NCBI GenBank assembly: GCA_043228905.1
Contig: JBHGNT010000007.1
Span: forward strand, 1,612,001-1,676,000
Direction of reading: 5' to 3'
From: Azolla caroliniana
Taxonomy: Eukaryota > Plantae > Polypodiophyta
Length of the DNA stretch: 64,000 nt
Shown here: positions 3,415 to 60,272 of the stretch, piece by piece
Layout of the letters: each line of letters begins with the position of its first letter
Numbering within the stretch: the stretch's first letter is position 1
Position numbers and translations under genes: made by a program
Notes under the pieces: generated by a model
Databases searched by the model: none
What the model was told of the DNA's origin: nothing
The model's input: only the letters and a program-made list of their open reading frames with translations

Positions 3415-4059
3415 TGTCGCGAAGATTCGCGCGTGCGTGTGCTACTCGAGCGACCACCGGGGTCTTGGACTAGGGAGGATGTTCGCAGAATTATCGAAGA
3501 GATGACGATCAATGTAAGATTAGATGAAATTTGTTCACTTGAGAAGAAGAAAGATTGTACACTTGAGAAGTAGAAAAATATGAAGAAGATAAAGACAAAC
3601 ATAATTAAATTGACGATAGTTGTGTTGGTGATATCACATATTGAGCCCCCCTTACACAAGCCCAACTAGAGGCTTTTATAGGTCTTTCCATGCTTGTGAC
3701 ATGCACAAAACCATGGGCTAAAACCATGGTTTTGTGCACACAGTTTTGCTTATGTCATGCACAAACCATGGGTTTAGAACCATGGTTTTGTGCACATGGT
3801 TTTCGAATGGTTGTTTCATCTATAATTCATATATGAAAAGTAAATACATAAAATCTACACTATATAATAGTTGGCCTAGTGGTAAGGCAAACATCTTGTA
3901 TCTTAGAGGTGCAAGGTTCAAACCTTCTTTGCACCCCTCTGTATGAACTCAAGTGCCACTAGGCCTTAGGCTTATTTGTTAAGTGTATGTGCAATGTTGC
4001 ACATCCTTGGTTTATTCGTCTCACTCGATTTCACACCGTAGCCGAAAATCGTCACGACA
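3415..4059 (-). repeat. 3' LTR of the gag-only element
   Basis: TGTCGCGAAG...GTCACGACA, with about 10 substitutions versus 6283-6927 counted by eye. Confidence 0.95.
3872..3926 (+). promoter_or_regulatory. tRNA-like Pol III A-box/B-box module inside the LTR (second copy at about 6740-6794 with a mutated A box)
   Basis: A box TGGCCTAGTGG with D-stem GCCT/AGGC. B box GGTTCAAACC at 3915, 43 nt downstream. Acceptor and anticodon stems are not recognisable. Confidence 0.6.
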
Positions 4060-6282: not shown

Positions 6283-6927
6283 TGTCGCGAAGATTCGCGC
6301 ATGCGTGTGCTACTCGAGCGACCACCGGGGTCTTGGACTAGGGAGGATGTTCGCAGAATTATCGAAGAGATGACGATCAATGTAAGATTAGATGAAATTT
6401 GTTCACTTGAGAAGAAGAAAGATTGTACACTTGAGAAGTAGAAAAATATGAAGATGATAAAGACAAACATAATTAAATTGACGATAATTGTGTTGGTGAT
6501 ATCACATATTGAGCCCCCCTTACACAAGCCCAACTAGAGGCTTTTATAGGTCTTTCCATGCTCGTGACATGCACAAAACCATGGGCTAAAACCATGGTTT
6601 TGTGCACACGGTTTTGCTTATGTCATGCACAAACCATGGGTTTAGAACCATGGTTTTGTGCACATGGTTTTCTAATGGTTGTTTCATCTATAATTCATAT
6701 ATGAAAAGTAAATACATAAAATTTACACTATATAATAGTTGTCCTAGAGGTAAGGCAAACATCTTGTATCTTAGAGGTGCAAGGTTCAAACCTTCTTTGC
6801 ACCCCTCTGTATGAACTCAAGTGCCACTAGGCCTTAGGCTTATTTGTTAAGTGTATGTGCAATGTTGCACATCCTTGGTTTATTCGTCTCACTCGATTTC
6901 ACACCGTAGCCAAAAATCGTCACGACA
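6283..6927 (-). repeat. 5' LTR of the gag-only element
   Basis: Direct repeat of 3415-4059, adjacent to the PBS. Confidence 0.95.
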
Positions 6928-20323: not shown

Positions 20324-21304
20324 ATTGTATATACAATATTTCATTGTTGTCATAGTTAATTCTAATATTGAATTTGTCATTGATAAAATATTTGTATCCC
20401 CATCAAGATAAGCATCATAGTTTCCACATTGTGATCATCCCCAAGTTTGAATAGCTTAGTGATAATTGTGATTTTGTAATGGAAATCCCTCTTCTTGCAA
20501 GTCATCCAATGGACTTCTCCTCGTTTTTGCTTGTCATGGAGATAGACTAGAGTGTGTAACAGCGAAACCTGTTCAATCAAACAACCCAAGTATGAATGGA
20601 GGCGAAGTCGCAAAGGATTATAACATAACACTTGAACAATGAACAATTAGGTGTCCACTTTGAATGTATGGCGTCACTGACCTTTTTGCGACTAATCAAT
20701 AACCAATCAATAACCTTTTTTTCGTTTGTCTAAAATTTTGCAACTATTTACTTAAAGGTGGCCCCATGGAAAGGCTTTATGTGTATCAATTTGCAGTGAT
20801 TTGAATATCTTGTTTTGTATTTTGGATACAACATTCCACCACATGTTTTGGCCCATCGCATCTCTAATGTATTTATAAGAGATAAACCGCATTGATTTAT
20901 ATATGTCGCTTCAAGGAAAAAATCTTTAATGTGATAACAATAACACTTGGTCTACTTTGTATATCCTTGACATTACTACAACGTGACCACTATAACTAAG
21001 AGATTCACATAACATTCACTTTTGAAAATTTTCATTAAGCTTGTTTGCAAAGCATGGTAAGTTTCATCCCATCCTATACTTTTTTTTACTATGCACAAAT
21101 CTTACATCGTGTAAGATTATACCAAAATTCTATAAAATCTTTCATTGTTAGATTCACATTTTGGAAACTTCCATTGTTCCCACAAACCTTTTAATGCTTT
21201 GAGCAATTCCAATTTTGTAAATGTTGATTCTATCGTCTTTGTCCACCTAGTTTATTTATGATTCTCAATGCATGTATTAAAACCCTTCATAAAATAAATG
21301 AACA

Positions 21305-21735
21305 TATTTCAGAGATATACAATCAATGCATATGTGTGAAACACAACTTAAAAGATGGATATTGTGAATCCATGTGACATGCAACATGTGTGTACTCCAC
21401 GGATGGGGCGTGGTCTAAGGGCGGCATATATGTGTGCAAAATGCAACCTATTTCAGAGATATACAATCAATGCATATGTGTGAAACACAACTTAAAAGAT
21501 GGATATTGTGAATCCATGTGACATGCAACATGTGTGTACTCCACGGATCGGGCGTGGTCTAAGGGCGGCATATATGTGTGCAAAATGCAACCTATTTCAG
21601 AGATATACAATCAATGCATATGTGTGAAACACAACTTAAAAGATGGATATTGTGAATCCATGTGACATGCAACATGTGTGTACTCCACGAATGGGGCGTG
21701 GTCTAAGGGCGGCATATATGTGTGCAAAATGCAAC
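21305..21735. repeat. Tandem repeat, 3 x 144 bp, near-identical
   Basis: Units start TATTTCAGAGATATAC at 21305, 21449 and 21593. Confidence 0.95.
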
Positions 21736-22523
21736 TAGACCAACACATGGATAGTGTGGATCTATTTGTGAGTCCCATTGATTGGGGTAGGGTTTTACAT
21801 TGACACGGCGGCTTTCTTGTGTTTCGCCTAAGCAATCATAACTTTAAGAAAAAAGTTGAAGATATTATTGTTGAAGTATACAGTTACCCATCATTTTGAA
21901 GGTTATATTTATTACATGTACATCAAAATATGATACCTAAGTTAAGTAGTCATGGCTCTTGACCATCCAAGGGCCAAAGAGAAGGAGAGGCGATGGAGAG
22001 TGTATTTTTGTTTTATTTTATTTTATGTAAATATAATTAAATGTAGAGAGCGAAGACAAAGAAGAAGAAGAAAAGAGAAGGAGAGAGTATTTTCACTTTA
22101 TTTAAATGTACATATCTATGTAGATAAAATATAATTGATAACATATATGAGTGGACATTCTATCTTTTTCTCGGAAGGAAAAAGATAACACCAACAATGA
22201 CACTTACAATGGACTTTGGATCCACACCCCACCGGCCACCAAGACTAACTTACAAAGAAGTTTGGATTTGACCAAAATACTAACAACTCATTTCCAACCT
22301 ATGAACCAATTTAGATGACTAACATGATGACATGTTTGTCACTCTTCATGTGATGCGTATACAATCAAACACGCCCACACACTCTATATTTTCTTACGGT
22401 TGACGAACATGATGATATGTTAATTACATTCCCTCTCTCCAAAGGTCATAGTTCATTTGTATCTCGAAAGATGATGATAAAACCTATCTACCTACCTACC
22501 TACCTCTTCTTAAAAAGTTGTGC

Positions 22524-22567
<44 letters not shown>

Positions 22568-22571
<4 letters not shown>

Positions 22572-22866
22572 ATGAACAAAGGGGAGTACACCTTTATGTG
22601 TTGAGATTGAAAGGGTTCCTTTTATGGCAATTTTCATTGTTGGAGATGTCAAGTATATTCAATCATGAAGAGAGACAAGTATGTAAGTTAGTTGGGCATC
22701 ACTTTCGTCATTTGTTCTGATAAGAAAGGTTATGGGATGTTGAGAGACATATTCATGGTTTGTAATGATATGAATATGTATCTCTCTATGTAGATATATG
22801 TAAAGATGACTTACAAGTTGTAATAGTGGGTTTTTTTACATGCAATTAATATAATTGTGTGATTTT

Positions 22867-22869
<3 letters not shown>
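22568..22869 (+). mobile_element. 5'-truncated L1/Tx1-like LINE 3' end within (GA)n
   Basis: Encodes FDEQRGVHLYVLRLKGFLLWQ...EERQVCK, homologous to the C-terminus of 31700-32320. (GA)n on both sides. Confidence 0.7.
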
Positions 22870-22914
<45 letters not shown>

Positions 22915-22915
<1 letters not shown>

Positions 22916-22977
22916 AGTTAGTAAGGTTGCCCAATGGAGACCAGGTGGTCATGGGTTCAACCCCTACATTCCACAAT

Positions 22978-23019
<42 letters not shown>

Positions 23020-23102
23020 GGCTAGTTGGATGTAGCTCAGTTGGTAAGTTGTCCAATGGAGACCAGTTGGTCATGGCTTCAACCCCTACATTCCACAGTG
23101 GC
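22915..23102 (+). mobile_element. Two tRNA-derived SINE-like units (22915-22980, 23021-23102), separated and flanked by (GA)n
   Basis: A box TAGCTCAGTTGGTAAG, B box GGTTCAACCCC, shared tail CTACATTCCACA(A/G)TGGC. Confidence 0.7.
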
Positions 23103-23936
23103 AGAGAGAGAGAGACCAACTTACCACTAGGGTAAGCAAATTACCCAAGCTTTATGTTGGTTATTTAGATTAATTCAAAAAGATGAAGAAAAGCTTTAGC
23201 TTCTCATTAGGTTATCCCATTGTGTATAGTTTTCATATCATGCTTAATCTTTGTTATATTTCTCGAATAAGTTGTGTGTGCATCATATACACGAACATAG
23301 AAATGTAGGGCACATTTTTATACTTAAATATAAAGTAAAGGGCAATTTGAGGTTGAAAGCATGAGAGGAAGTGTGGTCGTTAATGAGGGTAGATTATGTC
23401 AAAGGAACACACTCACGTATATAAATGCAAATCCACATGACATGAATAGTGTGTGAAACACAACTTTGCTAACACATGGATACTGTGAATCCATGCGATA
23501 CAACATATTGTCTAATATCTACCATATGAAGATTACTGAAATATGATAACATTATCCATATGACATATAACACATTCCAAATCATGTCGTTTCTTAAGCC
23601 ACATGCCATATCTCTATATACTGAATTCGCAACATCTCAAATTCCAAATAGTTGACAAAACCATCTTAACCATCAAGACAGTCATTCTAGTATTCTTTAT
23701 ATCATTCCAATTGTATCGTATATGTCCTCATGCTCCCACACACATCCTCTTCACTCATTATCTTCACAATGACTAGAACTTGGCTTAACAAAATGTTATT
23801 AATATCATAAGACAATTTTGACATCAATTTCACCTTAGAATGAATCAAAATAAGATACAAAATCAAAAAATTGAAGAGAAGTGTGTAAAAGTAGTATACA
23901 CACAATTATTATTAAATGGGCATCATAAATTAGACA

Positions 23937-24044
23937 TTATCTATGATTTCGATGACTTTGATGCTTTTTCCCGAGTTCCTTCACGATGACGGTCTCCAAC
24001 TTCTCTTGCAGGTCAACACCTTCCATGTGAGCCATGTTTGTTAT
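23937..24044 (-). CDS. bHLH gene exon 3 (ITNMAHMEGVDLQEKLETVIVKELGKKHQSHRNHR*)
   Basis: Acceptor TTGTTGTGAAG, phase 0, 108 nt ending in TAA. It completes the ACT-like domain (DLQEKL helix). Confidence 0.65.
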   Translation of the reverse strand: MTNMAHMEGVDLQEKLETVIVKELGKKHQSHRNHR

Positions 24045-26377
24045 CTTCACAACAAATAGATTAGTTGAATAAACAAGGAAATATTCAACAACGGGGTTGG
24101 TTTAAAGTGATGATTAATAGACATAGAGTTGCTTGATTGATTATTTCACTAAGCTTTTCTACATTCCTTTGTCCAAATACATTGAATGAAATTTGACAAT
24201 TAATAGAACCCTTACCTAGGTTCCTTAAGCTCCCTCACAATATTCACAAAACAAAAGCCAAAATAGACAACTATGGATAACGGACTACAAAAGCAAACAA
24301 TGATTGATGAAAATGTTTCATCCATTATGAATAAATGCTAACCAACCATAGGCTCAAAATGGTAAGCCCAAAAGGTAGGAAAAGAAGATTAATGTGCTAT
24401 TTTATTATATGCTTTGATGCAAGTGTATCTTTTTGAAATGGGCGACTTTGCATCGGACAAATATTGTGTGTGTTGTTTTGAATCTAAAGAGTGTGAGGCA
24501 CATGTTTTTTGATGGGTAAGGTTTCCTCGTAAGATATTGACAAAAATACTTGCTTTATGGAAACAATTGTCATAAGAATCTATACATGCCTACCGCAAAT
24601 TTGAGAAGGCAACAATATTATGACCATGTTCTAAGTTGCAAAAGAATATGATGCATTATAAAATATAACATAATTTAACAACTTACTAGATGTACTATTC
24701 CTGTACCTAATAAATCAAGTTTCCTTTTCATACATGAAACAAAAAAATTGTGCAAACGGAGGATATCTTTCTTTTGGATTTCCTCACCTTTTGTTTATGT
24801 TCCATATCAACCAAGCTAAACAATTCAAGTGGCATTTTCCTAAAAACCAAAGGTACGTAAATGGAAAGAGAACATTGAAGTTTCCTATTTTATGAAAAAT
24901 GATCAAAATGTTACAATCTACTTTTCCACAGTTACTGAAAATGCCACACTTTTTGACACGACTCCCAAAATAAATAAAATGCAGTGGTGTCATAATTAGA
25001 TCTAATTGTAATCATTATTACTAATGACCTTGAGATTAGTAATAGTTACATTATCACATGCTAGTTACTCTTGTAACTACAATAATTCAAATATAACACT
25101 AATCATGTCATGCCCATCACGAATCACTCCAAGAACAATAGTAATTGAATCATTAATCACATTATTTAATCGCATGCAATTGTATTTGACAACACAGAAT
25201 TGAATTGATGCATAATTAACCTACAGTGAAAACAAGCAAGTTTATCTAACTACATCTTTCCTCGGAGTAAATCAATGAACTTTGTAAATAAGATTTAGGC
25301 ACGTGAGGTATATCTACTTTTTGACTATGCATATTAGGCTCGATAGTGTAAAATTACCACGCACACGACCAAAATAAAACATTAAATTTTTATTTTCGGG
25401 AAAAGATAAATGATAGTCATAGAACATAGATGTATATTGTGAGTCACAAGAAAAGTCTCACATAGTCATATCAAGTTTCAACAATATTCTTTACTACAAA
25501 TGAAAATTGTGGGTCCCAAAATGTCCATCCTATCTTAATATTCTAGATGAAGGTTTCATGAATGTGTACATAATTCATTATGTAGATATCAAGGTTAAAC
25601 ACATTCAAACAAAGTAAATATGTGGACACTCAGATCTAAAGAGTCTAGACTCCTCAATAAATTTGAAGTTATTCAAGCCCACCCTATTGCTAGCATTCAA
25701 GACAATGTTGTCATCATTCACCAAAAGTTGACAATACTAGTTGAGTTCACAATAGGAAATAATGCTCTCCACTTAACGACCTTAGCAATTATGATGCAAT
25801 TATGATGTTCTTTACTTTAAAATGTGGAAAAGAAGTTGTTCCATTGATTACGAACAAAGTTCTTAACACTTGCATATACCTAACTTAGGATGTGGGGAGA
25901 TTTGGGTTCCAAAACCCATGGGTACACAAAGTCATCCTCGTCATCGACCAACTATTGATGTCATAACAACTTAGAACATTCTTACGATTGTTAACATATT
26001 GCATATTTGATTATGGTTGGAAATCCCTAAATATAATATTATAACCTTGTCCAACTTTTCACTTCACTTATAAAAAAGTTGTAGTTCAAGAGATATATTT
26101 CAAAGATTCACAATTCCAATCTAAGTTAAAACTCTACGGCATTTCAATGCTCTCATGTTGATCCATATATTGTTCACCTCTAGTTAACATTCTCACAAGA
26201 AGATCTAAGGAAAGGCTAACTTGTGCCTTCATATGATACTATATGTTCAAGCATTGAGTACTTACAACATTTGGATTAGTTCATAACACTAGTAGATGAA
26301 TGCAAAATCTCCAGTTGATTTAATCAAACATTTGAACTAATTATTAAAAGATAGAATTGACAATGGGAAAGCCTTAC

Positions 26378-26791
26378 CTTTCCATGGATGGAATGGAAAC
26401 TGCTATCCCCAATAGTGGTGAGGCTAGCATTGGAGATCTCAATGCTACATTTGTGAAGAAGCTTAAGGACCCCTGTCCACACACCTTTTCTCCTTGGAAT
26501 GTTGAGTGTGATGAAGACATTGGCACGGGAAAACCTCACAGTGACCTCAACCATCACTTCACCACCTACTTGCTTCGTAGCTGTTTCATGAGTACCTTCC
26601 ATAATATATGTCACATTGCAATTGTGAGTCCTCTCTTGTGTATTGAGTTCGTGGTTTGATTTGGTTGATACTATTTCTATCCCTAGGAGTGCCAATGTAT
26701 CTAGCTTCTTTTGCTCCAGCTCCTTGAGCACTCCACGAAGCGATTTTATGTATGTGATCACCTCAGTCAAGACAGTGATCCTATCGAGGTG
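26378..26791 (-). CDS. bHLH gene exon 2 (helix 2, coiled coil, ACT-like domain)
   Basis: Acceptor ACAG|CACCTCGAT and donor AAG|GTAAGG, 414 nt. HLDRITVLTEVITYIKSL...LKELEQKK...VFITLNIPRRKGVWTGVLKLLHK. Confidence 0.88.
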
Positions 26792-26825
26792 CTGTCATTC
26801 ACAATGACAATTTTAAAAAGAAATG

Positions 26826-26850
26826 GAGGGGGGGGGGGGGGGGGGGGGGG
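26826..26850. repeat. Poly-G run (poly-C on the gene's sense strand) near the exon 2 acceptor
   Basis: More than 20 consecutive G. Confidence 0.9.
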
Positions 26851-27473
26851 TTAAATAAATGAGGATATAAATCAAAGTAAACCATTAAAAACAATTTGGA
26901 TATATCCAAATAGAAATAGGAGTTTTTAGGCAACAATTAATAAATAAATGAAATTTATCATTGAAAGAAGTCTTGAGAGACAAATTTCCCCACTATTATT
27001 TCAAGAAAATTATGGATGTATAACACCTAAAGATTTATGACATGAATAATTATCGAGGTAAAGACCTTCAGCTAGAAGCTCATAATGTTGACAATACATA
27101 GGGAAAAACATGAGAAGTAGGGGTATTTTCGCAAGATAAAAGTCATCAAAGGAAGGGGGTAATGTCAAAAACATATACCAAAACTCTAAAGTCATGATAG
27201 AGATTTGAAACCATGACCTCTGAATCAATGAGAATGTTTAACTAATATCTAGATTCCCACCATGTGGTGGACAATGTAGATAAGGAGACATAAGGGAAAC
27301 TTAACGTGTTCCTTGTACATAGTTAGAAAATGTTAGGGTTGTTAATGTTGGATGTCAAAGAGAAACTCTGAGGGAAAATAGTGTATGCATCGCCTCACAT
27401 ATATTTGACATGCCTTTAGCTAACTAAACACGATTTATAAATTTTACTAACATGGGTTCTTATAGGGAACTAG

Positions 27474-27607
27474 TTTTTTTTTTTTTCCCAAAATGAAGCT
27501 ACTTTCCCATTAGTTACGAAGGATTATTACAAAGAGACTGTACAAGGAGGCTTAAACATAGATCGGGGAATCTCCCTCCAATCAAGTTCAAGAAAATGAG
27601 ACTAGTT
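27474..27607 (-). mobile_element. Short L1 3'-end insertion with poly(A) and imperfect TSD in bHLH intron 1
   Basis: Reverse complement of about 54667-54790. Flanked by TATAGGGAACTAG and TATAGGGGGCTAG. Confidence 0.85.
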
Positions 27608-27779
27608 ATAGGGGGCTAGTTAACTTCTTGGGCATGAACTCTACAACCAATAGAGTGGACCTTTTAACACATAATAAATTTGTCTCTAACTCCTCAATTA
27701 ATTCACACATGTTTCATAAAGGAGGAGGTAGGGCACACAAGTTTGGGAGTTGACATGCATGTAATCTACAATATGATAA

Positions 27780-28290
27780 TCAATGCGTATAATGAACCAT
27801 CTTATCACTAAGAAGACCTATCCATGCATGTAACACCATAAAATGTAAAATGTTGCCCACCTTATCACTAATAAGATTTATCCATGCATGTAAAATGATA
27901 ATATGTAATGGGTATCATTGTCATGAATTTGTTGCATATTCATTAATGAGATTTGATTAACTACGCACATGATTCATGCACACGATAATATCTATGCATA
28001 TCATTAACGATTAATAACATCTATCCATGCATGTAAATTGATAATATATGATAGGCATCATTGACATGAATTTGCATCTTGGTGAATGAGTTTTAATTAA
28101 CTATGAAAATGGTTCATGCATAAAATAATCTCAAAGCATATCATGAACCAATGATAAGATCTATCCATGAATGTAACATGATAATATGCAATGGGTATCA
28201 TCATTATGCATGATTTTTTGTAATATGTAATTAACATGATTTTGCATGTTGGTTGATGAGATTTGATTAACTTAGAACAAGATTATTCAT
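27780..28290. repeat. Degenerate tandem repeats in bHLH intron 1
   Basis: TATCCATGCATGTAA(C/A)ATGATAATATG recurs at about 27819, 27879, 28022 and 28162. Confidence 0.7.
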
Positions 28291-28363
28291 GCCAATGACA
28301 ATCTAGTTCAGTACTTAAGGGATCTAAGTTGGTGAAATATTACGAAAAACGATGATTCATTAC

Positions 28364-29443
28364 TTTGCGGTGAAGCTTGGGGATGAGAGATTGTAAGATG
28401 GTAAACGATTCTCGCATGCTCTTGCGGCGATGCCGCTCCGAGAGAATGTGGGCCTCTCTTGTCGACAAACCCTCCTCTCCGGCATTAGGTGAAGGTTTGG
28501 GTCTACGTACATTGGACCTCACAGACGTAGTGTCATTATGATCATGGGGGTACTCAAGTTTGATCCTTTTAGGGTGATCACCAACACCATCATTATCATC
28601 ATCATCATTATCAATATTATTGTCATGGTTTTTACTAGGGCATGCCTTAGGCCTCCTTACTATGATAACATTAGAAATTGGAGGCTTCACTTCAATCACA
28701 CCCTCAAATTCTTCTTCTCCTAGTCTTTTTTTTTCTTTAGCCTTTTCTTTTAGCCAACCTCTTGGTATAGTAGGGCCATTTTTAGGTGCAATTGGAGCAC
28801 CCATACCGTAATGGTACAAAGACTTTTCTTCTTCTTTTTCTTTGCTAATTTGAGTGTTTAGGGCATACCCATGATCACCATCTCTAGATGTGGCTATATT
28901 TGGAGGGTTGATACTACTACTATTTGAGACATAAGTTACTCCATCATCACCATTAGTGAACCACCACCCATCATGGTCTTTGGCTACACTTGGTGGAGGA
29001 CCCCTTTTGTCCACACAAGAAGCTACTTTAGCCGCACTAGCTCTATTGTAGCTCCTCGAGATGAAGCTAGCGGAAGAGTTCAGGTTATAAGAAGCAGACT
29101 TGGACATGTTAAGAGTGGAGGAGAAGGATGGGAGGGCAGAGACAACTGCAGAGAGCTTCAGAACAGAGGTGTATTGGGAAGAGTTTTCAGTGATCAATGT
29201 AGCCTGGTCAAGAGGTGGGGAACCTCTCTTGTTCTGACTGTTATTATTATGAGGAGGGAGAGAGGAAGAAGAATCAGAGATCTCTGGCTCTTGTTGGGTT
29301 GAGGGAGAATTGAACCATGGCACATCCGTTTTAGGATTGTTACTATGAGTAGAAGCTATCATGGTACACCAGTAGTCCTCATCAATGTTGAGATAGTGAT
29401 GATCTGCATCAGAGGATAGGTTGAGGTAGGAATCAGGATCCAT
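28364..29443 (-). CDS. bHLH transcription factor exon 1 (ZHOUPI/bHLH95-like, subfamily Ib); predicted protein about 533 aa
   Basis: REAHILSERHRRKSMRESFTILQSLIP basic region and helix 1 with H-E-R residues. Donor AAA|GTAATG in the loop, a conserved plant bHLH intron position. (CT)n upstream of the ATG. Confidence 0.9.
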
Positions 29444-29496
29444 TGCAGGGGAAGCAGGGAAGAGGAGGGAACAGAGTGTAAGGACAATGTATCAAT

Positions 29497-29540
<44 letters not shown>

Positions 29541-29625
29541 ACAAGAAGGAAGGAGAAGTTATTGAGCCATTGCCATGAATGAGACTTAATGAGCTTGTAT
29601 GTTTGAGAGGGTTTTAATGAGTGAG

Positions 29626-29657
<32 letters not shown>

Positions 29658-29670
29658 CGAGAGAGAGATT

Positions 29671-29759
29671 GCCTACATGGATCTAGCTCAATTGGTAAGG
29701 TTAGCCCAATGGAGACAAGCAGGTCATGGGCTCGAGTCTCTACTACATTCCTCTCTAGT
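29671..29759 (+). mobile_element. tRNA-derived SINE-like unit (same family as 22915 and 23021), preceded by (GA)n
   Basis: GGATCTAGCTCAATTGGTAAGGTTAGCCCAATGGAGAC...GGTCATGGGCTCGAGTC...CTACATTCC. Confidence 0.65.
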
Positions 29760-29800
29760 AAATAAAAAGATATCTATGGAAGTAATAGAGACGTCACAAA

Positions 29801-30338
29801 ATTGGGTCTTCGAACCTAGCACACAGTGCTAGTAGTGTAATGACTTACCATTAGGGTAATTACTATAATAAGATATATATATATATAGAGGGGGGGTTAT
29901 TACTATAAAAAGAGAGAGATATACACATTACCATCTTTTTACCCAAGCCTAGCATGGCCATGGTACCCAAACAAGTGATTGCATCTTACAAATGTTGTCT
30001 CCTCGTCTTGGCCTCGGCGAAAGAAACCAAAAATAAGTATATAACAGACTAGTAAAAGTGCCCAAGGATTACTGGACGGAAAGCTTTTGCCTTTTGAAAT
30101 GTCCCCCAACTCTCGTTGATTTAAGATGGAAGGGTCTTTAAAGATAAGGATACGCTTTTGGTGAATACATAGATATATTTTAAACTTCCTCAGAGACAGA
30201 TTGTGATCTATTATAGAGAGAGGGAGAGAGAGACAAAAAAAAGTGATGACATTCCGATGATGGTGTTAAAACATGTTTTTGATGTAACGTTGCCCTCAGA
30301 CTTTTGGGATTTTTGGCTCGTTGCAGTTTCGTGGTGTC

Positions 30339-30385
<47 letters not shown>

Positions 30386-30500
30386 TTCCAGAGTGGCATC
30401 TAATGAAATAGAGATATATATAATAGAGAGGTGAGAAAATTGGGTTTTGAACCTAAGACACAGTGCTTGTAATATTATCGACTTACCACTAGGGTAAGCT
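29801..30500 (-). mobile_element. Second tRNA-like SINE family: copies at 29801-29860 and 30440-30500 (fragment also at 23118-23146)
   Basis: The reverse complement reads TACCCTA(A/G)TGGTAAGTC...AGCACTGTGT...AGGTTC(G/A)AA. Copies lie among GA/AT runs. Confidence 0.55.
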
Positions 30501-30507
30501 AATTACG

Positions 30508-30555
<48 letters not shown>

Positions 30556-30558
<3 letters not shown>

Positions 30559-31274
30559 GACTACTAATCTTTTGTATCATTGCTCTGTTGAGTCTCTTGG
30601 ATGACTATCATCTAAGGTTGAAGAAGAATGGAAAATACACAAATCTGATCATGGGTGGTGGCAGATCTTACAACGTAGTTGGCATTCTAAATTGCCACTT
30701 GTAGCAAAGTTCTTCATTTGGAGAGTTTTGATTGGAGGATTGCCTTTGAGATTAGCTTTAAAGCGTCGTGGACTAGCAAGGGGTAATTGCTTTTTTTGCA
30801 TTGTTCAAATGGAACATAGTACTCATTGATTTATACAATGTCTGATTGCTTGTCAGATTTGGAGTTACATTTCTCAAATTTGGCAAGTTTGATCACGATA
30901 TTATTTGACACCTAGACAATGGGTGTTTGCACAATTTACACAGGTTGACCCAAAATCAGAGATGGAGATCGTTTTTCTATTTCTGAGATATTGGGGATTG
31001 TGTCATAATTGGAACATGCGCAACACTTTTGTATTCGATGGTAGACATGGAGTGAAAGCATATCTACGAAAGTTGAAGGGAGTACTAATGTGACAATTTT
31101 CTTTATTGGAACAAGTGGAGATTCTTTCCTCAGTGGAATGTTCATCTTGCCTATTGGCAATTCAACATGTTCCACTACCCATGTAGTGTAGTTAGTGGGT
31201 GACCATACTCCATTGTCACACCCATTGTAAGTAGTGTTTTTTACACACATTTATTTATATAATTGCGGGTAGTT
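30556..31274 (+). mobile_element. 5'-truncated L1/Tx1-like LINE 3' end (zf-RVT remnant) within (GA)n
   Basis: KFFIWRVLIGGLP...CFFC...EHSTH.FIQC...FLRYWGLCHNWNMRN, with stops. (GA)n on both sides. Confidence 0.8.
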
Positions 31275-31297
31275 AGAGAGAGAGAGAGAGAGAGAGA

Positions 31298-31580
31298 TTA
31301 TATTATCATTTTCGGAGGTCAAATATGACCTATGAGACCAAAAATATTACATTTCACGTGATACATGTGAAAGTGAGTAGTGACTCTTGATGTTCAAGAA
31401 CTTTACCAATGAATGTTGCAATCGAGAGTGCACATTGTGGTTGTGAGAGGAATTCATGCAAGGATTGGGCTTGGTCGAAGAGATGTGGAAAGCATGGTCG
31501 AATATGATCAATAGGCAACACATTGTATCAAAGTGTGATACTCAGACTCGCAAACTTGTTTAGGACAAAGTGTGCATAGC

Positions 31581-31582
<2 letters not shown>
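31298..31582 (-). mobile_element. RTEX/L2-like LINE 3' end within (GA)n, i.e. (TC)n on its sense strand
   Basis: Reverse complement of about 39322-39606. RLCTLCPKQVCESEYHTLIQC. 3' end GATAATATAA|TCTCTC. Confidence 0.85.
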
Positions 31583-31676
<94 letters not shown>

Positions 31677-31678
<2 letters not shown>

Positions 31679-32428
31679 ACGAATGTTGCTTATCACAAGT
31701 TGATTGACAAACATAAATGGTTGGAAGAAAGGGTTATAAAGATATGGGGTTTTCATAAGCCCATTACTTGGTGGTTTCATGTGATCAAGGTAGGTTGGTG
31801 TTCTCGATTGATGCTACGAGCCAAGGTATTTATTTGGAGAGTTATGGTTGGAGCTTTACCATTAGGGGATGCATTAAAAAGAAGAAACATTACTAAAGGA
31901 TTGTGTTTCTTTTGTTCGGTGGAATTGGAACATAGTAGGCATCGATTTATTTCATGCCCGATGGCAAGGATGGTTTGGAGGTGTATCCGTTTAGTGTGGA
32001 TGTCTCTAACAGGAGTAAGTCTATCTTCCTTTAGTTGGGTTTTTGCACATATGGAGAACAATGAACCGATGCCTCATTTTCAAATTATTTTTGAGTTCTT
32101 GAGGTATTGGGGGCTATGGTTCAATTGGAATATGCGGAATGCCTTCCTTTTTGATTCACAAGTTGGGGTGAGAAAATATGGTCTTAAGTTAAAAGGACTT
32201 CTTTTGTGGCAATTGACAGTGTTAGAGAAGTCACAAAATCTCAACCAAGAAGAGAGAGAACTCTGCAAGGTCACATATCATCATATTTGCCATATGAATT
32301 GGTGTGTAGGGTGGCATTGAGTTTGATGTCGTAGTTTTCTTTAGATCCCTAGATAGAAGGGGTTCTATAGTTTGTTGTAAGTTAGTCATGGTGGTGTTTT
32401 TTCTTTCGTAATGAAAGCCATTATTTAC
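31677..32428 (+). mobile_element. 5'-truncated L1/Tx1-like LINE 3' end (zf-RVT) within (GA)n
   Basis: ORF 31700-32320: KVFIWRVMVGALP...CFFCSVELEHSRHRFISC...WNMRN. (GA)n on the left and degenerate GA on the right. Confidence 0.85.
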
Positions 32429-35400
32429 GAAAAGAGCTAGAGAGAGAGTCTATCATCAATATAATTTTTTCACATCTAAAAAGGTTTTAGAGATATATTG
32501 AGAAAGTTTTGAGAGAAAAACTTTACTTGTGCACACAAAATTGCCCGTCTCTTTTTGAGAAGCTTTTCAATTAAGCTAAGGGTGATGTCCTCATTTCTTC
32601 AATTTAGGAATTTGGTAGATCGATGATTACGAGATGGGCAAAGAAAGCATATTTGTCAAGAGAAACAAAAGGGTCTTTAGTTGCTAATAGTCCCAATAGT
32701 CTAAGGAAAAAAAAGCTAGTACAGAAACAAAGTTGGGCAAAACAAGTTAAAAAACATGTCATTAGTTGTCTTGGTGGAACCATGCCACTATGTACGGGTG
32801 GGATGGACGTAGATTGTTGGTGAAACCTAGCTAACACATGGATAATGTGAATCCACGTAACATGTAACATGTGTCGGGCCCGTTGATGTGGTATTCTAGT
32901 GTCATGAGTGATCTCTACTTTAGAAGGTACACGAGGCTACTTATTTATATGAAGAAAGTGAAATCTAGTAAACATGATCTATATGCCATTTTGTAATATA
33001 TGCGTACCCCATCGATAGGCTTGAGTATTAATCTCTATTTTAGAAAGTGTATATCAATGTTAGTCATTTGCAGGAAGTTGATGCAATCTAATACATTAGA
33101 GTATAAGTGGATAGCTTGAGATAGAGGAAGTCCATCTCCATTGAAGCATTAGGTAGTATTGCAAGGCAACATGATGCCTGTTCATCCACATGCACATACA
33201 TCTTGGTGGGACTTGAAGTCAATACCTCATGGAACTAATTTCCTTTGTGTTGAGGTTGAGGCTTTATAACATGAATGCCACACAACATTATGGGTGGCGT
33301 GGGAGAATTTCTTGTCCAAAGGCTTTTCATACATAAACAATTGTGTGAAGAGATATGGTTTCAGGTAGGACAACCATTGCTTGACTAATAAAGCCGGCAT
33401 CAATAAAATTTGAAACCTTAAGGAACTACTAATTGCAACTTTCGCATGGAGGCAAAGTAATAATGATTGCAAGCAAAGAAATTTGGGAAAACAAAATGGC
33501 TATGCATTTGGTTTTGGTTATAATACAAATATAATACGTATATGGTATCATACATTGTAAATAGAATCTGCGACAAAGGTGTGAAAGATGCGAGTGGCAC
33601 CAAACTTGGACTAGGAAAGTTGGCTTTGGTTTTGGTAAGTATGTGTGCGAGAAAATGTGATGTAGTGGGTCCTCTACGTGAATTATGATTCTATTTGACA
33701 CATATATGTAAGTGTGCAAGATTATATGTGTTTCAGTGAAGGTAAACTGATGCAATTTGTGTTTGTTATAAATGTGAATGCAAAGTTGTATGTGTGTGCA
33801 CTGGTGGATATATTTGAGTATGAGTGCACATTCAAATGTGTTTGTATCGAATTATGAAAGTATATGTAAATTTGTAAGTGTTTTTGGTGTGCTTATGCCT
33901 GTGTTTTTGTTGGCATGAGAACAAGTGAGCCCATTCGACGTTCAAATGTGTATGTGTCATCGTGGAGTTAATTGTGTGAGTGGGATTATGTTTGCATGCA
34001 TGTGTGTGATTGTGTTTATGCTTTTGTGATTATCTTTAGATGTGCATATGTGTGTATTTGTTTATAATTTTGGTGGGTATGTAGACTTTAGGACATAGTA
34101 TTTGTATATAGGTACATTTTGTTGGAAATTCAAGGTGTTTGGGGAACACAAAGTCTCCTCCCCCCCGCCCGTTATAGTGTTAGATATGGTGATAGAGGTA
34201 GAGGGTTTAAACGTTCCTTGTATTGTGAAACCTAGGATCAACATTGAGCCTAAGCCCAAGAGAAGGACTCACGATGTTATCCAATGTAGGCAATGACACA
34301 ATTTCCAACAATGCTTATCACTTCTTGAGTTGCTCCTCCATCTTGTCATGTGGAGGAACACACACATGGTAGAACTCATCAAGTCTTATCATGCAAGTTC
34401 TACATGGTAGAACTTGTTAGGTTCTATCATGGTGAGTTCCTATGATAGAACTCTTTGGGTTCTATCGTGTGGGCTCCACATGACAAAATTCCACGAATTT
34501 ATCGTATGCTAAAATATTTGTCCTCATGTTCGTATTTACTGCATGCTTCATTTTCTCCATCTCCACTTATACTTTGTAAAACATCTTTCCTCCTTATCAC
34601 CTTTGGTGGAGCTACGTTGTAATATTTCCTCGATATTCTTCTCACATTTTCTTTTGTTAATCACTTTAACTACATTGCCAACCAACTATATTTGTATAAC
34701 TTGACTTTTAGATGTTTTTCCTTTTGCATACAACACATCATGACAATGTCTTACCATTGAGTTTTGGTTTTAGATATTCCAAATCAACACTAGTTGTGTA
34801 CCTCTATTGGTTTCCCTTCTTTGTGGCATTGTACACATCATGTAATAGTATAATTTCTTGATTCATTCCCACTATTTCCTATTCTCATGTTCATACTTTT
34901 TTGGTCTTCTGTTTATGGTTTCATAATTGTTTGAACTAGAGTCTTCTTAGCCAATTTTGATCTCTTATGGAGTGATGATCGGTTCATTGAGTTGTGTAGA
35001 AGTTTATGCCTATAATGTTATTGTAAAATTTAGACACCAATTTCTCAAATATGCTAACGATTAGATATTGCAAATACTCAACTTTGAGAGAAGACATGTT
35101 TGGTTTCAACATCCAACCCTCTAGGATTTTTTGAATAAGATTCAATTGGTGGTACAATTACAACTCACAAATAAGCAAGGAATCAAGGTCCAATGGGCTT
35201 GGTCAAATTCCTTCTTATGGGATAGATTCTTAATTGGTTTAAGTCATTGATTGAAAATGAGCTTAATAGTTCCAAGCTTTTGCAACCTTCGAAAAACATC
35301 ACATGGCTTATTTTGGGGACATTATAGATATATCATGATAGACATTGGTAGATATATTTTGAGGCAAGTATCAAATTAATCAAGTGAATTTTATGCAAGG

Positions 35401-38428: not shown

Positions 38429-38465
<37 letters not shown>

Positions 38466-39641
38466 ATACCCACCCTCACCAACACTATTTGGTCTATGCA
38501 ATGATGAATTGGAAGAAATGGTTACCAAGTTTGCAAAGGAAGAATCTGTTGAAGAAGTTGCCATTGGGAATGTTGTGATTATGCTTTTGCTATATGCAGA
38601 TGATGTAGTGCTTTTTGCAAATACTTTAGGAGATGCACAAAAGCTTATGAAGGTATTGAGATATTAAGTGTTGGGTCCCCAAGAAATATCTTTTCAACAC
38701 TTAATATGGGGTGACACTGGTTCTTCTCTATAGGGTAGAAGTATGGGGCGGTAGCATCCCTAAATCTATGTGGAAAGAGTTTGAAAATGTCCAAAAACAT
38801 TTTCTTATAAAGTTTCTACAAGTTAAGAAACAAATGCCCTACACCCTCCTCCTCCTTGAGATCATGGCCATGGAAAGGGTTGTTGAATACATGCTTAAGG
38901 TTCAAAAAATTCTCTCACATCGACTTCCTAGAATTGCATGGGAAGCAAGCAAAAAGATCCAAAAGACACATAAAAGCAAAATTTTGTGTTCTGGTTGGAT
39001 GCAAGATATAGAAAAATAGTTTGGTAGATGGGATGCGAGACACTTTGATGCATCATTAGATTCCTCTGTAAATGAGGCCTTTTTGCAACGTCAATGTATC
39101 ATGACATGGGACAAATGTGGAGGCTCATGCTTCACACATTATACTACATATGTTGCACCTAACTACAAAACCATATTCTTAGCCGAATGGGGAAACCGTA
39201 CACATCGATACATGTTAGAGCCCATTCCATTGGTTTCCATTCGAACCATTGCCTCCATGTGACTTAGGTCACATGCATTGCGATGTGAGATGGGGCGTTG
39301 GGGCACAAGTGATGAGAGTGGTCGACTATGCACACTTTTCCCTAAACAAGTTCGAGAGTTTGAGGATCACACTTTGATACAATGCTCTGCCTTTGATAAT
39401 ATTCGACCATGCTTTTCACAAATCTTCGATCAATCCCAATCCTTGCACGAATTTGTCTTACAACCACAATGTGCACTCTCGATTGCAACATTCATTGGTA
39501 AAGTTCTTGAACATCAAGAGTTGCTACTCACTTTCACCCGTATCATGTAAAATGTAATATTTTTGGTCTCATAGGTCATATTTTACCTCCAAAGACGATA
39601 ATATAATCTATCTATCTATTTATCACACACATAGACACACA

Positions 39642-52240: not shown

Positions 52241-53269
52241 TTGATGGATCGCTCGAGACTTTGTTAACACTTCATAGTTGGTATTAAATCGTATTTCCTC
52301 CATTAGTATGGTCATCACACAATACCACTTCATATAACTATAGAAGAATTGCACTAGAAAAGGTAATATTACCCTTTTAGACCTTAACATCTACACCTAG
52401 TTTTAGATTAAACTTTTAGCTTTTTGATCAATGCCTTATGAGTATTCTTTCTATTGATGTAAGCCTTCACGAATTGTCCTATTGATTGCATTTTAATTTC
52501 GTTGAGGTCAACTTTTTGCGTAAGGACTTGATTGATGCATAGGGTGTAGTTACCCTTGTCGGAAATTCTAATGTTGTTTGACATTGTATTGAAGAATTTA
52601 AGTTTAGTGATACATAATTCCATTGGCACCATGACACATTACTCAAAATTGAAAACATTGTAATCCATGTGACACTAAGAGTTAGAATAAAAAAGCGCAT
52701 GCATCCTTCATTGGTGCCACATGTCAAGTGTAGCACTCATCTCTTGTAATAGTTAGCTTGAGATACATTTAGGAGAAGCCATAGGGGAAAAGAAAAAGCA
52801 AGCTTGACCTAGAACTCAAAGCACAAGGGAAATGTATACACAGGGATACTTAGCCATATCTTGTGGAGGGAATGATCTAATCGTAATTATTGAGACACTA
52901 CTTGGGATTCCCATTGGTTTTTTTAAATTTTAAACAAATTATCTATACAATACAATCTACTTCTTAATTGGATTTATTCATTGCCTCTTGTAATTAATGT
53001 ATTCTAAAATCATTTTGGTTTACTCGTATACATTACTTGTCAAACTATCCTTGGTTCTAAATTGCTTAAAATTTTGAGCTTTTTTTGAGCCTACAATTCA
53101 CCCATCTCTCCTAAATTCGACATTTTCTTGGTCAAGAACCCCAATAGTTCCACCGACTCGCTTCATGACAATGCATACTTGATAGGACTTTTGGTGTTCA
53201 AGATCCCAAAATAGAGACAAATAAATATTTAACACGATGAACAAAACATCATTATTTTGGAACCCTCAG

Positions 53270-54797
53270 GTGTGAACAAGTGACGACATGATGTTAGGCC
53301 AGCTTAAGGGCCTAGCATGGGGAAAGCTGGCGCAAACAGGGCTTCACTCTTTAGATGATTGGAGACGCACGATGGCTTTAGGAGGAGTCTAGGAGGTCCT
53401 ATTCCCTTCCCTCAAGGGAGCCATGAAAATGCGGAGATTGCTAGCTGAGGCAAATGATAGGGTTCTAATGGGGGAGGTGAGAGAAGATGCTTGGTTCAGT
53501 CTCTTTGATGAGGCTGGAAGGGTTAAGGCGCTTAAGGGTGTGAGCGGATTGGGAAGAGATAGGATTTTTGGGGAGAGTCAGAGTAGGGGCTCTTGGCACC
53601 CTATTCGCGTGGTGGCACAGGTTGGTAACATCTGGAAGACAGACGCGGATGTTGCTAAGGTGGAACCCCATTGGAAGTTATGGGTATATGGTTGTCGTCC
53701 CCTCGTCGAACTAGAATGGGACCCAGGGGATTTCAGGAGGAACCATGATGGCAGATTTCGCCATTTCTTCGAGTACAACACTAAACTGGGTTGGGCTTTT
53801 CAACTACAGCTAGAAGGCCCCTTACACAATGGTTGGCGTACATTGGGCATCCCTGATGAGGTGCTCATTACCTTTTGGAAAGATCTCTGGCGTCTCCACT
53901 TGCCGGAAAAGATAAAAATATTTTGGTGGCAAATTGGTCATAATGTGGTTCCCGTTGGTGAATGGCTAGGTAAACGTGGTGGCCCGTTAGGCTGCCCACT
54001 TTGTCATTCACCTATTGAGACTCTGAGGCATTGTCTGTGGGATTGCCCTCACGCTCAAAAGGTATGGGGTAGAGTGACTCGCCTCCTTGTGGCATGTGAA
54101 GTGGAAGGAACAACATCGTGGAGTGTTGCGGCATGGCTTGATCACTCTGTTGATTGGTGGACAGATGCCTTCAATGCAGATAGTTGGTGTTATGTATGCA
54201 TGAGGGGAAAAATCGTCAAGATTCAATTTGAGAGAGGCTTGCAGTCCGCATCCCCTAGGTTCCCAGACATTTGGATGTTGATCGCAGGCTTCACCCTGTG
54301 GTATGTATGGAAAGCGCGTTGCCTAAAGGTCTTCCAGGATTTGGTGCGGCCCCCGGAGGAAGTGATCATGGACATATGGTTTGCGCTTATTAGCTTCCTA
54401 CGAGGGCAATTGGACGAGGATTGCAGCCATTCCTCTGACGTGGGTACTGCCCACTTGCGCTTTTGGCAGAAATGGCGGAACACGCCTATGATGACACAAG
54501 GAGGAAGTGGCCCGAGGTGGAACTACCAACCCCCACGCTAGCTGTTTCCGGCTCACTTACCACCCTCCCTTTGTTGTCGACCCCAAGAGTTGTCTCATAC
54601 TAGCCATCACTGCATGGCACTGGTTGTAGGTACTTACACTAAGTAGTCAGTCTGAAAGGCAATGTAACTAGTCTCAATTTCTTCAACTTGATCGGAGGGA
54701 CATTCCCCGATCTATGTTTAAGCCTCCTTGTACAGTCTCTTTGTAATAATCCTACCTAACTAATGGGAAAGTAGCTTCATTTTGGGAAAAAGAAAAC
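53270..54797 (+). mobile_element. L1-type LINE 3' fragment with zf-RVT and an A-rich tail
   Basis: ORF 53423-54541: PEKIKIFWWQIGHNVVPVG...CPLC...ETLRHCLWDC...WYVWKARC. 3' end TTTTGGGAAAAAGAAAA. Confidence 0.88.
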
Positions 54798-57700: not shown

Positions 57701-58813
57701 TGAATTTTCTCCTCTCTGATGCGAAAGGTTTTTTGTTTGGTAGCCGTCCTAGGCTTAATTGGGATGCTTTGGATGCATTAGTTGCATGTAATGTTCTTTC
57801 ATGGGGATGCCATGTTATGAATCGACCGTTACAATCTTTATCGATGCATTCAGTTCGAGGAGGCAATGTTATGTGTAATGATTTGCAAGTGGCATTGGGA
57901 CAATTTATGGCTTCATGGTCTCCCTCAAGTAATGAGATATGGTTTGGTTATTTTTCTCCTTTAAAAGTTATTTTAGGAGCTAAAGTAACTAATGCTACGG
58001 GTGATGCTATGTATTTTAATGTTGATGATGATGGTAGGTTGTAGCATGTATACTCAGATACATCAGATGTGTGGATGTCTACCAAAACTTTGGCTATTCG
58101 AGTAGTCGCACGATCGGGAAAAAAATGGTCTTTGGATCCACCCTTTCAAGAATGCTTGTTGTATTCCTCATTGTGGGTTTTTCAAAAAAACCTCTCCATA
58201 ATTTGGATTTGGATCTAGTTGATTACCAATGGAAAAAGCCGAGTTTTGGTGGAAATGATAAACATTTGGAGTTTTTCCAATATTTAGTTAAGCTAGGTAG
58301 AAATTTGTTGCTGCAATCAAAGTATAAATGCCCTGCTACCATGAAGCACTGGTCTAAGAATTATGTGTGGGAATTACAACTTGCCAAATTTTGGAAATGG
58401 TTGTGGAGCATGCAATTGCCGAAAAAAGTCATTTGCTTTCATAGGTTGTTGATTCATTATGCTCTTCCTGTTGGTGATTGGTTGAGACAATATCAACAAT
58501 ATGCTTGTGGATTGCATTGTGGCGCACCTACTGAATCGATTTTGCATGTGTTTTGGTTATGTCCCAAGATCAATAAATTTTGGAGTAAGTTGTTTTTATT
58601 GTTGAGACAACACTACTCTCATTCAATATTCTCTTGGGGTGCAATATTGTGGGGTGTCCTTCATGGAGAGGTTATGAGGTATGAAAGTATGCATGCTTCT
58701 CATGTTTTTCGTTTTTCTTATGGACACTTCTCTCTCACCTCGTTTCCTTCATCTGTTCCACAGTTCAGAATTATAAATTTGGTCCTTTGGCGTACTATTA
58801 CGTCATTGGCTCT

Positions 58814-59549: not shown

Positions 59550-60202
59550 GCTCTTTGGATAATATGGAAAGCGAGATGTGATTCCGTTTTTAACAATGTC
59601 CACATACAACTCAACACTATGCTTATTGAATTCTAGATGTTGTTTGTTCACCTAGTACATGGTCAATATGATGATCTGCAGGGTTCGGATGATGTTTTGT
59701 GGCAACGGCAAGTGGCCTTTAAGAACCGATGGCAATGCCTTCAATTATTTTCAGATACAACTTTTGGTCGAAAGTGGAATTATGCCATACCTTCCTTTAT
59801 GTTGGATAGTGGATAATATTGTTCTACTTGTTTATATATGACATCATCTGTTTGATCAGATGTACTAGTGTTTGTATCTTACAATAAGAAGTGAGATGAA
59901 ATGTCCGCTTCTATTTTTTCTATGTAGACTTTTGAAGTAATATACTAAGGTGTATCTTCCTTTAAAAAATAAAATTGTGAGGTTTTATTGATTTGATTCA
60001 CATTCAGCATGAAGTTAGGTGCTAACCACTTTTGTTTTGAAGCATTACAAATTTGATGGTAAATTAATTTCAATACATATAGTCGTACTGAAGAGTTTGT
60101 TAACCTTCATAAACATCCGTGAAAAGTTCAATATTTTCGTTAGAATTAATTTGCTCTATTTAGATAATTCTTTTGTTTATCTCGCAAAACCTCATGCTTT
60201 CT

Positions 60203-60272
60203 TTCTTTTTTTTTCCAAAAAAGAAGCTACATTCCCATTAGTTAGGAAAGATTATTACAGAAAGACTATATA
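60203..60272 (-). mobile_element. Very short L1 3'-end insertion (family of 53270-54797)
   Basis: Poly(T) plus CCAAAAAAGAAGCTACATTCCCATTAGTTAGG...GATTATTACA, matching the reverse complement of 54730-54790. Confidence 0.7.

What the first reader, a model, noticed from the sequence alone, without database searches (positions are those of the whole stretch)
22540..32448. L1/Tx1-like LINE lineage apparently targeting (GA)n microsatellites, without poly(A) tails
Seen: three mutually diverged 3' fragments of one zf-RVT LINE lineage (22568-22869, 30556-31274, 31677-32428) all have (GA)n on both sides of their sense strand, and none ends in poly(A). The other L1 fragments here (27474, 53270, 57140, 60203) end in A-rich tails away from GA runs. 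Known: microsatellite-specific APE LINEs exist in animals (Tx1-clade Kibi/Koshi, R1-clade Waldo). Inference: this is a sequence-specific plant LINE, and the divergence among copies suggests long-maintained specificity.
Basis: partly seen in the sequence, partly recalled or inferred. Interest (0 to 1): 0.72.

Follow-up and report, generated by a model that had tools for sequence, protein, structure and literature searches.

The report
Fern LINE clade targeting GA repeats
A group of related jumping genes in this plant, likely a fern, sits in GA-repeat stretches of DNA and always faces the same way, likely because its own cutting enzyme prefers those repeats, a habit I found described only for animal jumping genes.

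Summary
Confirmed and wider than reported. The three fragments belong to three families (A, B, C) of one plant L1-type LINE clade with at least six families. In family C, 82 of 97 forward-strand 3' ends have GAGAGAG within 25 nt (background about 1%). GA lies at the 5' junction in 46 of 63 resolved copies, including 17 of 18 full-length ones. None of 127 clade copies faces the other way, and a control L1 family scores 0 of 30. The GA is target, not tail: 5 of 5 informative uninterrupted paralogues hold a GA tract, and target-site duplications cross tract edges. A 200-bp SINE and a U6 copy show the same flanks, pointing to targeting by the proteins in trans. Corrections: short A runs are present (median 2-5); family A is only loosely specific; the clade is not Tx1. 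Relatives occur in Adiantum (flanks untested). Ten library searches (nine returned listings) found no plant precedent; Repbase was not searchable. The scan earlier noted an analogous GA-facing Tx1 in a shark or ray, but no look-alike of this element.

The parts
22540..22567 (+). (GA)14 target tract, 5' side of the family A copy (preceded by (AT)8)
22568..22869 (+). 5'-truncated LINE, family A (loosely specific family), 91% to a full-length A copy
22870..22914 (+). (GA)22 tract, 3' side of copy A
22915..23140 (+). Pieces of the 200-bp GA-flanked SINE (22915-22980, 23024-23103, 3' piece near 23116-23140) separated by GA runs
28340..29443 (-). Host bHLH gene, first open frame (367 aa, HLH E=1.2e-5); the GA cluster 29499-32448 lies directly upstream
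29671..29859 (+). Diverged full-length copy of the SINE behind a GA tract
30385..30508 (+). 5'-truncated SINE copy between (GA)21 and (GA)22
30511..30555 (+). (GA)22 tract between SINE and copy B
30556..31274 (+). 5'-truncated LINE, family B, 93% to a full-length B copy; last about 12 nt differ from the family end
31275..31297 (+). (GA)11 tract, 3' side of copy B
31298..31582 (-). 3' fragment of an unrelated LINE (family E, (ATCT)n-tailed) lying in GA tracts in the opposite orientation
31583..31676 (+). (GA)47 tract between E and copy C
31677..32429 (+). 5'-truncated LINE, family C (young, 97.6% to a full-length 5.58-kb copy); end of ORF2 with zf-RVT, stop, 3' UTR
32430..32448 (+). A4 remnant of the tail, then interrupted GA run (GAGCTAGAGAGAGAG)
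53250..54796 (+). Control: family D L1, poly(A)-tailed, not GA-associated (further copies 27475-27608 and 60200-60503 on -)

Best explanation
These are truncated copies of an old plant L1-type LINE clade whose insertions sit inside pre-existing (GA)n tracts in one fixed orientation, likely because the element's own AP-type endonuclease nicks the (TC)n strand and reverse transcription is then primed on the RNA's A tail. Shown: anatomy (ORF1 with zinc knuckle; ORF2 with APE, RT, zf-RVT), GA at both junctions, fixed orientation, short A runs, target-site duplications of 9-29 nt, 5' truncations and 5' inversions, GA tracts at empty paralogous sites. Inferred: nick on the TC strand; second-strand cut about 15-20 nt downstream; priming near the start of the poly(A) when the primer is a TC repeat, which explains the short tails; use of the same proteins in trans by the SINE and the U6 copy; and a feedback in which each insertion leaves two GA tracts, building nested clusters such as window 30340-32448. 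The preference would be a shift of the usual L1 liking for pyrimidine/purine junctions, strict in C, B, F, G and H and relaxed in A.
For: 82 of 97 forward-strand family-C 3' ends have GAGAGAG within 25 nt against about 1% background. 5' GA occurs in 46 of 63 resolved C copies, at many different truncation points, and in 17 of 18 full-length ones; B: 3' 31 of 31, 5' 15 of 30. Of 48 non-GA 5' junctions, 7 are 5' inversions and 6 of these have GA just outside the inverted piece. TC-oriented copies: 0 of 127; control family D: 0 of 30. Related families F, G, H: 12 of 15 loci end in A(0-16)+(GA)n by eye, against 0 of 8 loci of two unrelated L1 families. Uninterrupted paralogues of the host sequence hold a GA tract in 5 of 5 informative cases among 98 insertions examined. 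Duplications run from the tract into unique downstream sequence (L083, L093, L098, L182, L180, L288). The longer the 3' GA tract, the shorter the A run (Spearman -0.59, n=65). SINE: 5' GA 23 of 29, 3' GA 19 of 23, with A0-11 and 17-18 nt duplications. One U6 copy has GA on both sides and stops at an internal GAGA. Endonuclease motifs are intact and the hairpin-loop region FQS[AST]QYxxTWSRLD is conserved across the clade; loop grafts alter L1 endonuclease specificity (PMC1950540, abstract).
Against: No biochemical test was run. PMC1950540 (abstract) says that DNA structure and other factors matter beyond nicking specificity. Family A has nearly the same loop yet is loosely specific (3' GA 11 of 30; real non-GA insertions with duplications at L091 and L101), so the loop alone does not explain strictness. 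15 of 30 B and 17 of 63 C 5' junctions are not GA; for most of these I only infer secondary disruption (LTR-like ends, internal duplications). An unrelated LINE (E) also lies in GA tracts, which fits a host property of the tracts. The empty-allele test in other samples was inconclusive. Copies were sampled as best matches or first in genome order, not exhaustively.
Confidence: 0.72

Rival explanations
1. The LINE particle is tethered to GA tracts by a host GAGA-binding protein or by open chromatin there (plant BPC/BBR proteins, recalled); the endonuclease is only generally pyrimidine-preferring.
For: An unrelated LINE (E) also lands in GA tracts (TC at 9 of 19 resolved 5' ends by eye). Several nicks lie at or just past the tract edge (L083, L192, L288). 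Family A differs in strictness with a similar loop.
Against: Family D and two other L1 families in the same genome show no GA link (0 of 30; 0 of 8). Most junctions lie directly in the tract, not merely near it.
Confidence: 0.13
2. The endonuclease reads a DNA shape (any long purine/pyrimidine tract), not the GA sequence; GA dominates because it is the commonest such tract.
For: Some insertions sit in GAA, GAAA or A-rich runs (L101, L102, L176, L274). PMC1950540 (abstract) stresses target structure over sequence.
Against: Poly(A)/A-rich sites used by family D are rarely used by B and C (B 31 of 31 GA at the 3' end). This rival overlaps with the best explanation and differs only in how the tract is read.
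Confidence: 0.1
3. The GA is carried by the RNA (self-encoded or read-through tail) or arises from decay of poly(A); it anneals to or mimics a target.
For: All window copies end in GA. Mixed A/G tails occur in family D too.
Against: This cannot put GA at random 5' truncation points (46 of 63) or outside 5' inversions (6 of 7). Empty paralogues already hold the tract. A-run length varies 0-11 among 97-98% identical copies. D tails do not turn into GA (0 of 30).
Confidence: 0.04
4. Chance or passive retention in GA-rich regions.
For: The window is rich in GA runs.
Against: 82 of 97 against about 1%; fixed orientation, 0 of 127 reversed.
Confidence: 0.01

Closest known systems
Kibi ((TC)n) and Koshi ((TTC)n) of teleosts; crocodilian Tx1-1_Crp group ((TTCC)n/(TTTC)n), Tx1 clade (PMC4494074 and PMC3812793, passages read)
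   Same: APE-type non-LTR element of the L1 group that inserts into a purine/pyrimidine microsatellite; passes the >20% flank criterion of PMC4494074.
   Different: Plant host; RT outside the fish Tx1 clade; DUF4283-type ORF1 in relatives. Sense strand is flanked by GA; whether Kibi faces the other way I could not check (supplement unavailable; suggested only by an unchecked scan note).
Plant L1 clade LINEs (PMC5203782, passages read)
   Same: ORF1 with DUF4283 and zf-CCHC in relatives, ORF2 APE-RT-zf-RVT, A tail, target-site duplications, 5' truncation and inversion.
   Different: Strong microsatellite preference, very short A tails, no RNase H hit; a long own branch, only weakly joined to a Cryptomeria L1 and family D (80/63).
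SINEU with Tx1-Mar of crocodilians (PMC4494074, passages read)
   Same: A SINE shares the target preference of a target-specific LINE, taken as a sign of trans-mobilisation.
   Different: Here the SINE is 200 bp with tRNA-like boxes by eye only (no ARAGORN or Rfam tRNA hit), and the target is (GA)n.
Waldo (ACAY) and Mino (AC) of insects (PMC3812793, passages read; R1 clade placement recalled)
   Same: APE LINEs targeting microsatellites.
   Different: Different clade, host and repeat; no R1 sequences were compared here.

Membership tests
L1 group of APE non-LTR retrotransposons | ORF2 with N-terminal APE and RT | tested here: met
   Exo_endo_phos E=3e-11, RVT_1 E=1e-27, zf-RVT E=2e-11; best PDB hits human L1 endonuclease
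L1 group of APE non-LTR retrotransposons | A tail, variable target-site duplications, 5' truncation and inversion | tested here: met
   A0-15 runs; duplications of 9-29 nt where measurable; 7 inversions among 48 non-GA junctions
Plant L1 clade | ORF1 with DUF4283 and zinc knuckle | tested here: met
   zf-CCHC in C ORF1. DUF4283 not scored on C itself but on the Adiantum relative P0098 (E=1e-6; 36% identity over 422 aa to C ORF1) and 10 of 21 ORF1 relatives
Plant L1 clade | RT groups with plant L1s | tested here: inconclusive
   Weak join to Cryptomeria P0014 and family D (80/63); not joined to the angiosperm L1 clade; deep forks open
Tx1 clade (Kibi/Koshi) | RT groups with named Tx1 proteins | tested here: not met
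   Fish/turtle group with TX1-named proteins is a separate clade (100/99); union rejected, AU p=0.024 (LG+G4, long branches, group named after the tree was seen). Kibi itself not identified in the set
Target-specific family in the sense of PMC4494074 | One sequence type in more than 20% of flanks | tested here: met
   3' GA: C 55 of 65, B 31 of 31, A 11 of 30; D 0 of 30
Target-specific APE LINE | Endonuclease cleaves the target in vitro | not testable with these tools
   No biochemical data
tRNA-derived SINE (partner element) | tRNA-derived head with A and B boxes | tested here: inconclusive
   Box-like motifs by eye; no ARAGORN hit in 4 loci; no Rfam tRNA hit

The most novel reading that the evidence does not exclude
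An independently evolved, endonuclease-encoded (GA)n specificity in plant L1s that predates the split between this host's lineage and Adiantum. It has been kept by at least five families, relaxed in one, and is used in trans by a SINE. Together with a second unrelated LINE that enters the same tracts from the other strand, it multiplies GA tracts and builds nested clusters next to genes, so that these LINEs keep reshaping GAGA-type promoter elements in ferns.
Probability: 0.4. Interest if true: 0.78.

Novelty: new variant of a known kind. Interest (0 to 1): 0.63.

Why it matters
Target-specific APE LINEs are described from the animal Tx1 and R1 clades (PMC4640811, passages); my searches found none in land plants. 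A plant L1 clade with strict (C, B) and relaxed (A) sister families gives a natural comparison for finding what sets endonuclease specificity, which PMC3812793 calls not well understood. Young copies with long open frames exist (1,120 aa). GA tracts are common near plant gene starts (recalled), and the window's cluster lies just upstream of a bHLH gene, so the clade may matter for promoter turnover. It also warns that GA marker loci in this genome often carry insertions.

Tried and rejected
Empty alleles in other samples: contigs of four runs were laid on locus L202. Both flanks and the family are present in all four, but the tool skips the repeats exactly at the two junctions, so neither allele was shown. 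Runs with small word shares were not used. First-pass 5' calls from 1.5-kb flanks were partly wrong and were redone on longer stretches: L003, first read as GA, continues upstream; many 'non-GA' ends were internal insertions or deletions. The reverse-strand count (532) counts one locus many times and was not used. In one search, L223, L227 and L247 did not translate as placed and L237, L239, L249 were interrupted; they are in no count. The first tree run timed out; P0014 dropped out of the quick tree and was restored; P0055 was left out of all trees. Rfam on 22500-32600 gave nothing above threshold. Literature: ten searches (listings and abstract starts only; two returned no paper) showed no plant or fern microsatellite-targeting LINE. 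Two used 'Azolla' on a recalled guess from genome size; the host species was not determined. I recall a (CA)n-targeting L1 in Chlamydomonas, but term look-ups in PMC8226300 and bioRxiv 2022.06.16.496473 did not show it; it stays unverified and would weaken the 'first in green plants' claim. PMC9387920 (term look-up) says nothing on LINE targets. Repbase, Kojima and Fujiwara 2004, subscription journals and the supplement of PMC4494074 were not seen and may hold such a family or the Kibi orientation.
Full report
Observation. The window is G000:C7:1612001-1676000 in a 523-Mb genome. Three LINE 3' fragments lie on + at 22568-22869 (A), 30556-31274 (B) and 31677-32429 (C), each between GA runs. They are 43-53% identical in translated comparisons, and each has its own family: best genomic matches are 97-98% for C, 93-94% for B and 87-97% for A (712, 1,759 and 298 first-look candidates, which are not copy numbers; 40 scored each).

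What the element is. Full-length C copies are about 5.6 kb and 97.5-98.6% identical to each other. ORF1 (about 450-470 aa) has a zinc knuckle. ORF2 (about 1,280 aa) has APE, RT and zf-RVT, with no RNase H hit. The closest solved structures are human L1 endonuclease. Full-length B and A copies are 5.8 and 5.7 kb; C-A nucleotide identity is 71%, and B matches both at 66-67% over the RT only. The closest named relatives are Adiantum nelumboides proteins (54-59% in the RT region); the next named one is Cryptomeria at 29%. The host is therefore likely a fern; I did not determine the species. A zf-RVT survey (30 loci fetched of 150 matches) showed three more related families, F, G and H.

3' junctions. 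The exact 21-nt end of family C occurs 178 times, 97 on the forward strand; 82 of those 97 have GAGAGAG within 25 nt. Background is 0.7-1.0%. Among fetched copies, 3' GA was found in 55 of 65 C, 31 of 31 B and 11 of 30 A. From the 67, 32 and 32 rows I dropped matches under 83% identity and one tandem duplicate. L026, with a doubled 3' end, was not scored, and a few pairs such as L108/L189 are probably duplicated segments. Control family D from the same window gave 0 of 30. By eye, 12 of 15 F/G/H loci end in A(0-16)+(GA)n, against 0 of 8 loci of two unrelated L1 families. A short A run precedes the GA: median 4 in C (0-11), 2 in B, 5 in A, 8 in D. It is shorter when the GA tract is longer (Spearman -0.59 in C). 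The claim 'no poly(A)' should read 'very short A tail'.

After fetching up to 10 kb and chaining pieces, GA lies within 32 nt upstream in 46 of 63 resolved C copies (35 of 43 at 96% identity or more; 17 of 18 full-length), 15 of 30 B (4 of 5 full-length) and 13 of 29 A. GA is at either end in 63 of 65 C, 31 of 31 B and 15 of 30 A. Of the 48 non-GA junctions, 7 are 5' inversions, 6 with GA just outside the inverted piece, and 3 are internal duplications. Several others abut sequence ending in CA that recurs in other loci, which I read as later LTR-type insertions (inference). Family A has true non-GA insertions with duplications (L091, L101). Eight of 12 F/G/H stretches show GA at the 5' point inspected. 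None of 23 resolved D junctions shows GA, by eye. No copy is TC-oriented (0 of 127).

The GA was there first. Among 98 insertions examined, 16 gave a candidate empty site. Eleven were self hits, tandem duplicates or other LINE/SINE-GA junctions. The five informative ones (L046, L170, L217, L182, L035) sit in repeated host sequences whose uninterrupted paralogues hold a GA tract at the same place. Measurable duplications are 9-29 nt, mostly 15-20, and several begin in the tract and end in unique downstream sequence. The test on other samples was inconclusive, although it shows the family in runs labelled as four different organisms, from two studies.

Targeting works in trans. A 200-bp element ending TTACGA(T)+A0-11 has GA at the 5' side in 23 of 29 copies and at the 3' side in 19 of 23 copies with a found end, with 17-18 nt duplications in two. 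Its ending resembles the TTTACG end of families C, F and G. Four pieces or copies lie in the window. A U6 copy (Rfam E=9e-23) lies between two GA runs and stops at an internal GAGA (one case). These RNAs share almost no sequence with the LINE, so the preference likely rests with the proteins.

Mechanism. Inferred from the above and from general L1 knowledge: the endonuclease nicks the (TC)n strand, the freed end primes on the first A residues of the tail, the second strand is cut about 15-20 nt downstream, and the copy ends up between two GA runs. Each event leaves two targets, which explains the nested series at 30340-32448: GA, SINE, GA, B, GA, E, GA, C, GA. The hairpin-loop region is conserved across the clade, and loop grafts change L1 endonuclease specificity (PMC1950540, abstract). 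But family A has nearly the same loop and is relaxed, and the same abstract says other factors contribute, so tethering or shape reading remain open.

Comparison with known systems. Kibi, Koshi and crocodilian Tx1 families target (TC)n-like repeats (PMC4494074, PMC3812793; passages), and target-specific APE LINEs are listed for the Tx1 and R1 clades (PMC4640811, passages). In RT trees the GA families, unnamed database proteins and the Adiantum proteins form one clade (100/100) with Adiantum nested inside. The group with TX1-named fish proteins is separate, and their union is rejected at p=0.024, under a simple model with long branches. ORF1 relatives carry DUF4283, the main plant L1 ORF1 marker in PMC5203782 (passages). 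So it works like Kibi but is not shown to be Tx1; it is best filed as a plant L1-type clade of unresolved deep position. Whether the Adiantum copies are GA-flanked is untested, so the age of the specificity is inferred only from the divergence of families in this genome.

Novelty. Ten library searches showed no plant example; Repbase and closed journals were not searchable. The scan holds no look-alike of this element but has an unchecked note on a GA-facing Tx1 in a shark or ray. Verdict: real, well supported, a new variant of a known kind; interest 0.63.

Noticed in passing
window 31298-31582 (-) and 38465-39606 (+); L341-L365: A second, unrelated LINE (RT E=2e-30, C-terminal CxxC...HxxxxC motif, (ATCT)n tail; 2,753 first-look candidates) also lies in GA tracts but in the opposite orientation, with TC at 9 of 19 resolved 5' ends by eye. 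RTEX-like by recall, not tested.
   Followed up: partly
L312-L340; window 29671-29859: The 200-bp SINE has tRNA-like boxes at its 5' end and a second, inward-facing tRNA-like stretch near its 3' end, by eye only; no ARAGORN or Rfam tRNA hit.
   Followed up: partly
L080:2238-2340: U6 snRNA copy between two GA runs, cut at an internal GAGA, without poly(A).
   Followed up: partly
window 28340-29443 (-): bHLH gene whose upstream 3 kb holds six GA tracts and five retroelement pieces.
   Followed up: partly
L173 / L062 (G000:C7:19466000-19467834): The last 240 nt of a B copy with its GA and flank are repeated in tandem two more times.
   Followed up: no
L017/L040, L070, L076, L087, L191, L312: Head-to-tail chains of different clade families and the SINE joined by GA runs are common.
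   Followed up: partly
window 21296-21735 and 27869-28201: Short tandem arrays of 144-bp (98% matches) and 140-bp units.
   Followed up: no
window 3415-4059 and 6283-6927: 645-bp direct repeat at 98.5% identity, likely the two ends of a short LTR element.
   Followed up: no
window 57100-58800: Degenerate L1 ORF2 piece of another family, cut off before its 3' end by different sequence.
   Followed up: partly
L047:3821-6996: ORF1 and ORF2 of family C overlap by a few bases in different frames.
   Followed up: no
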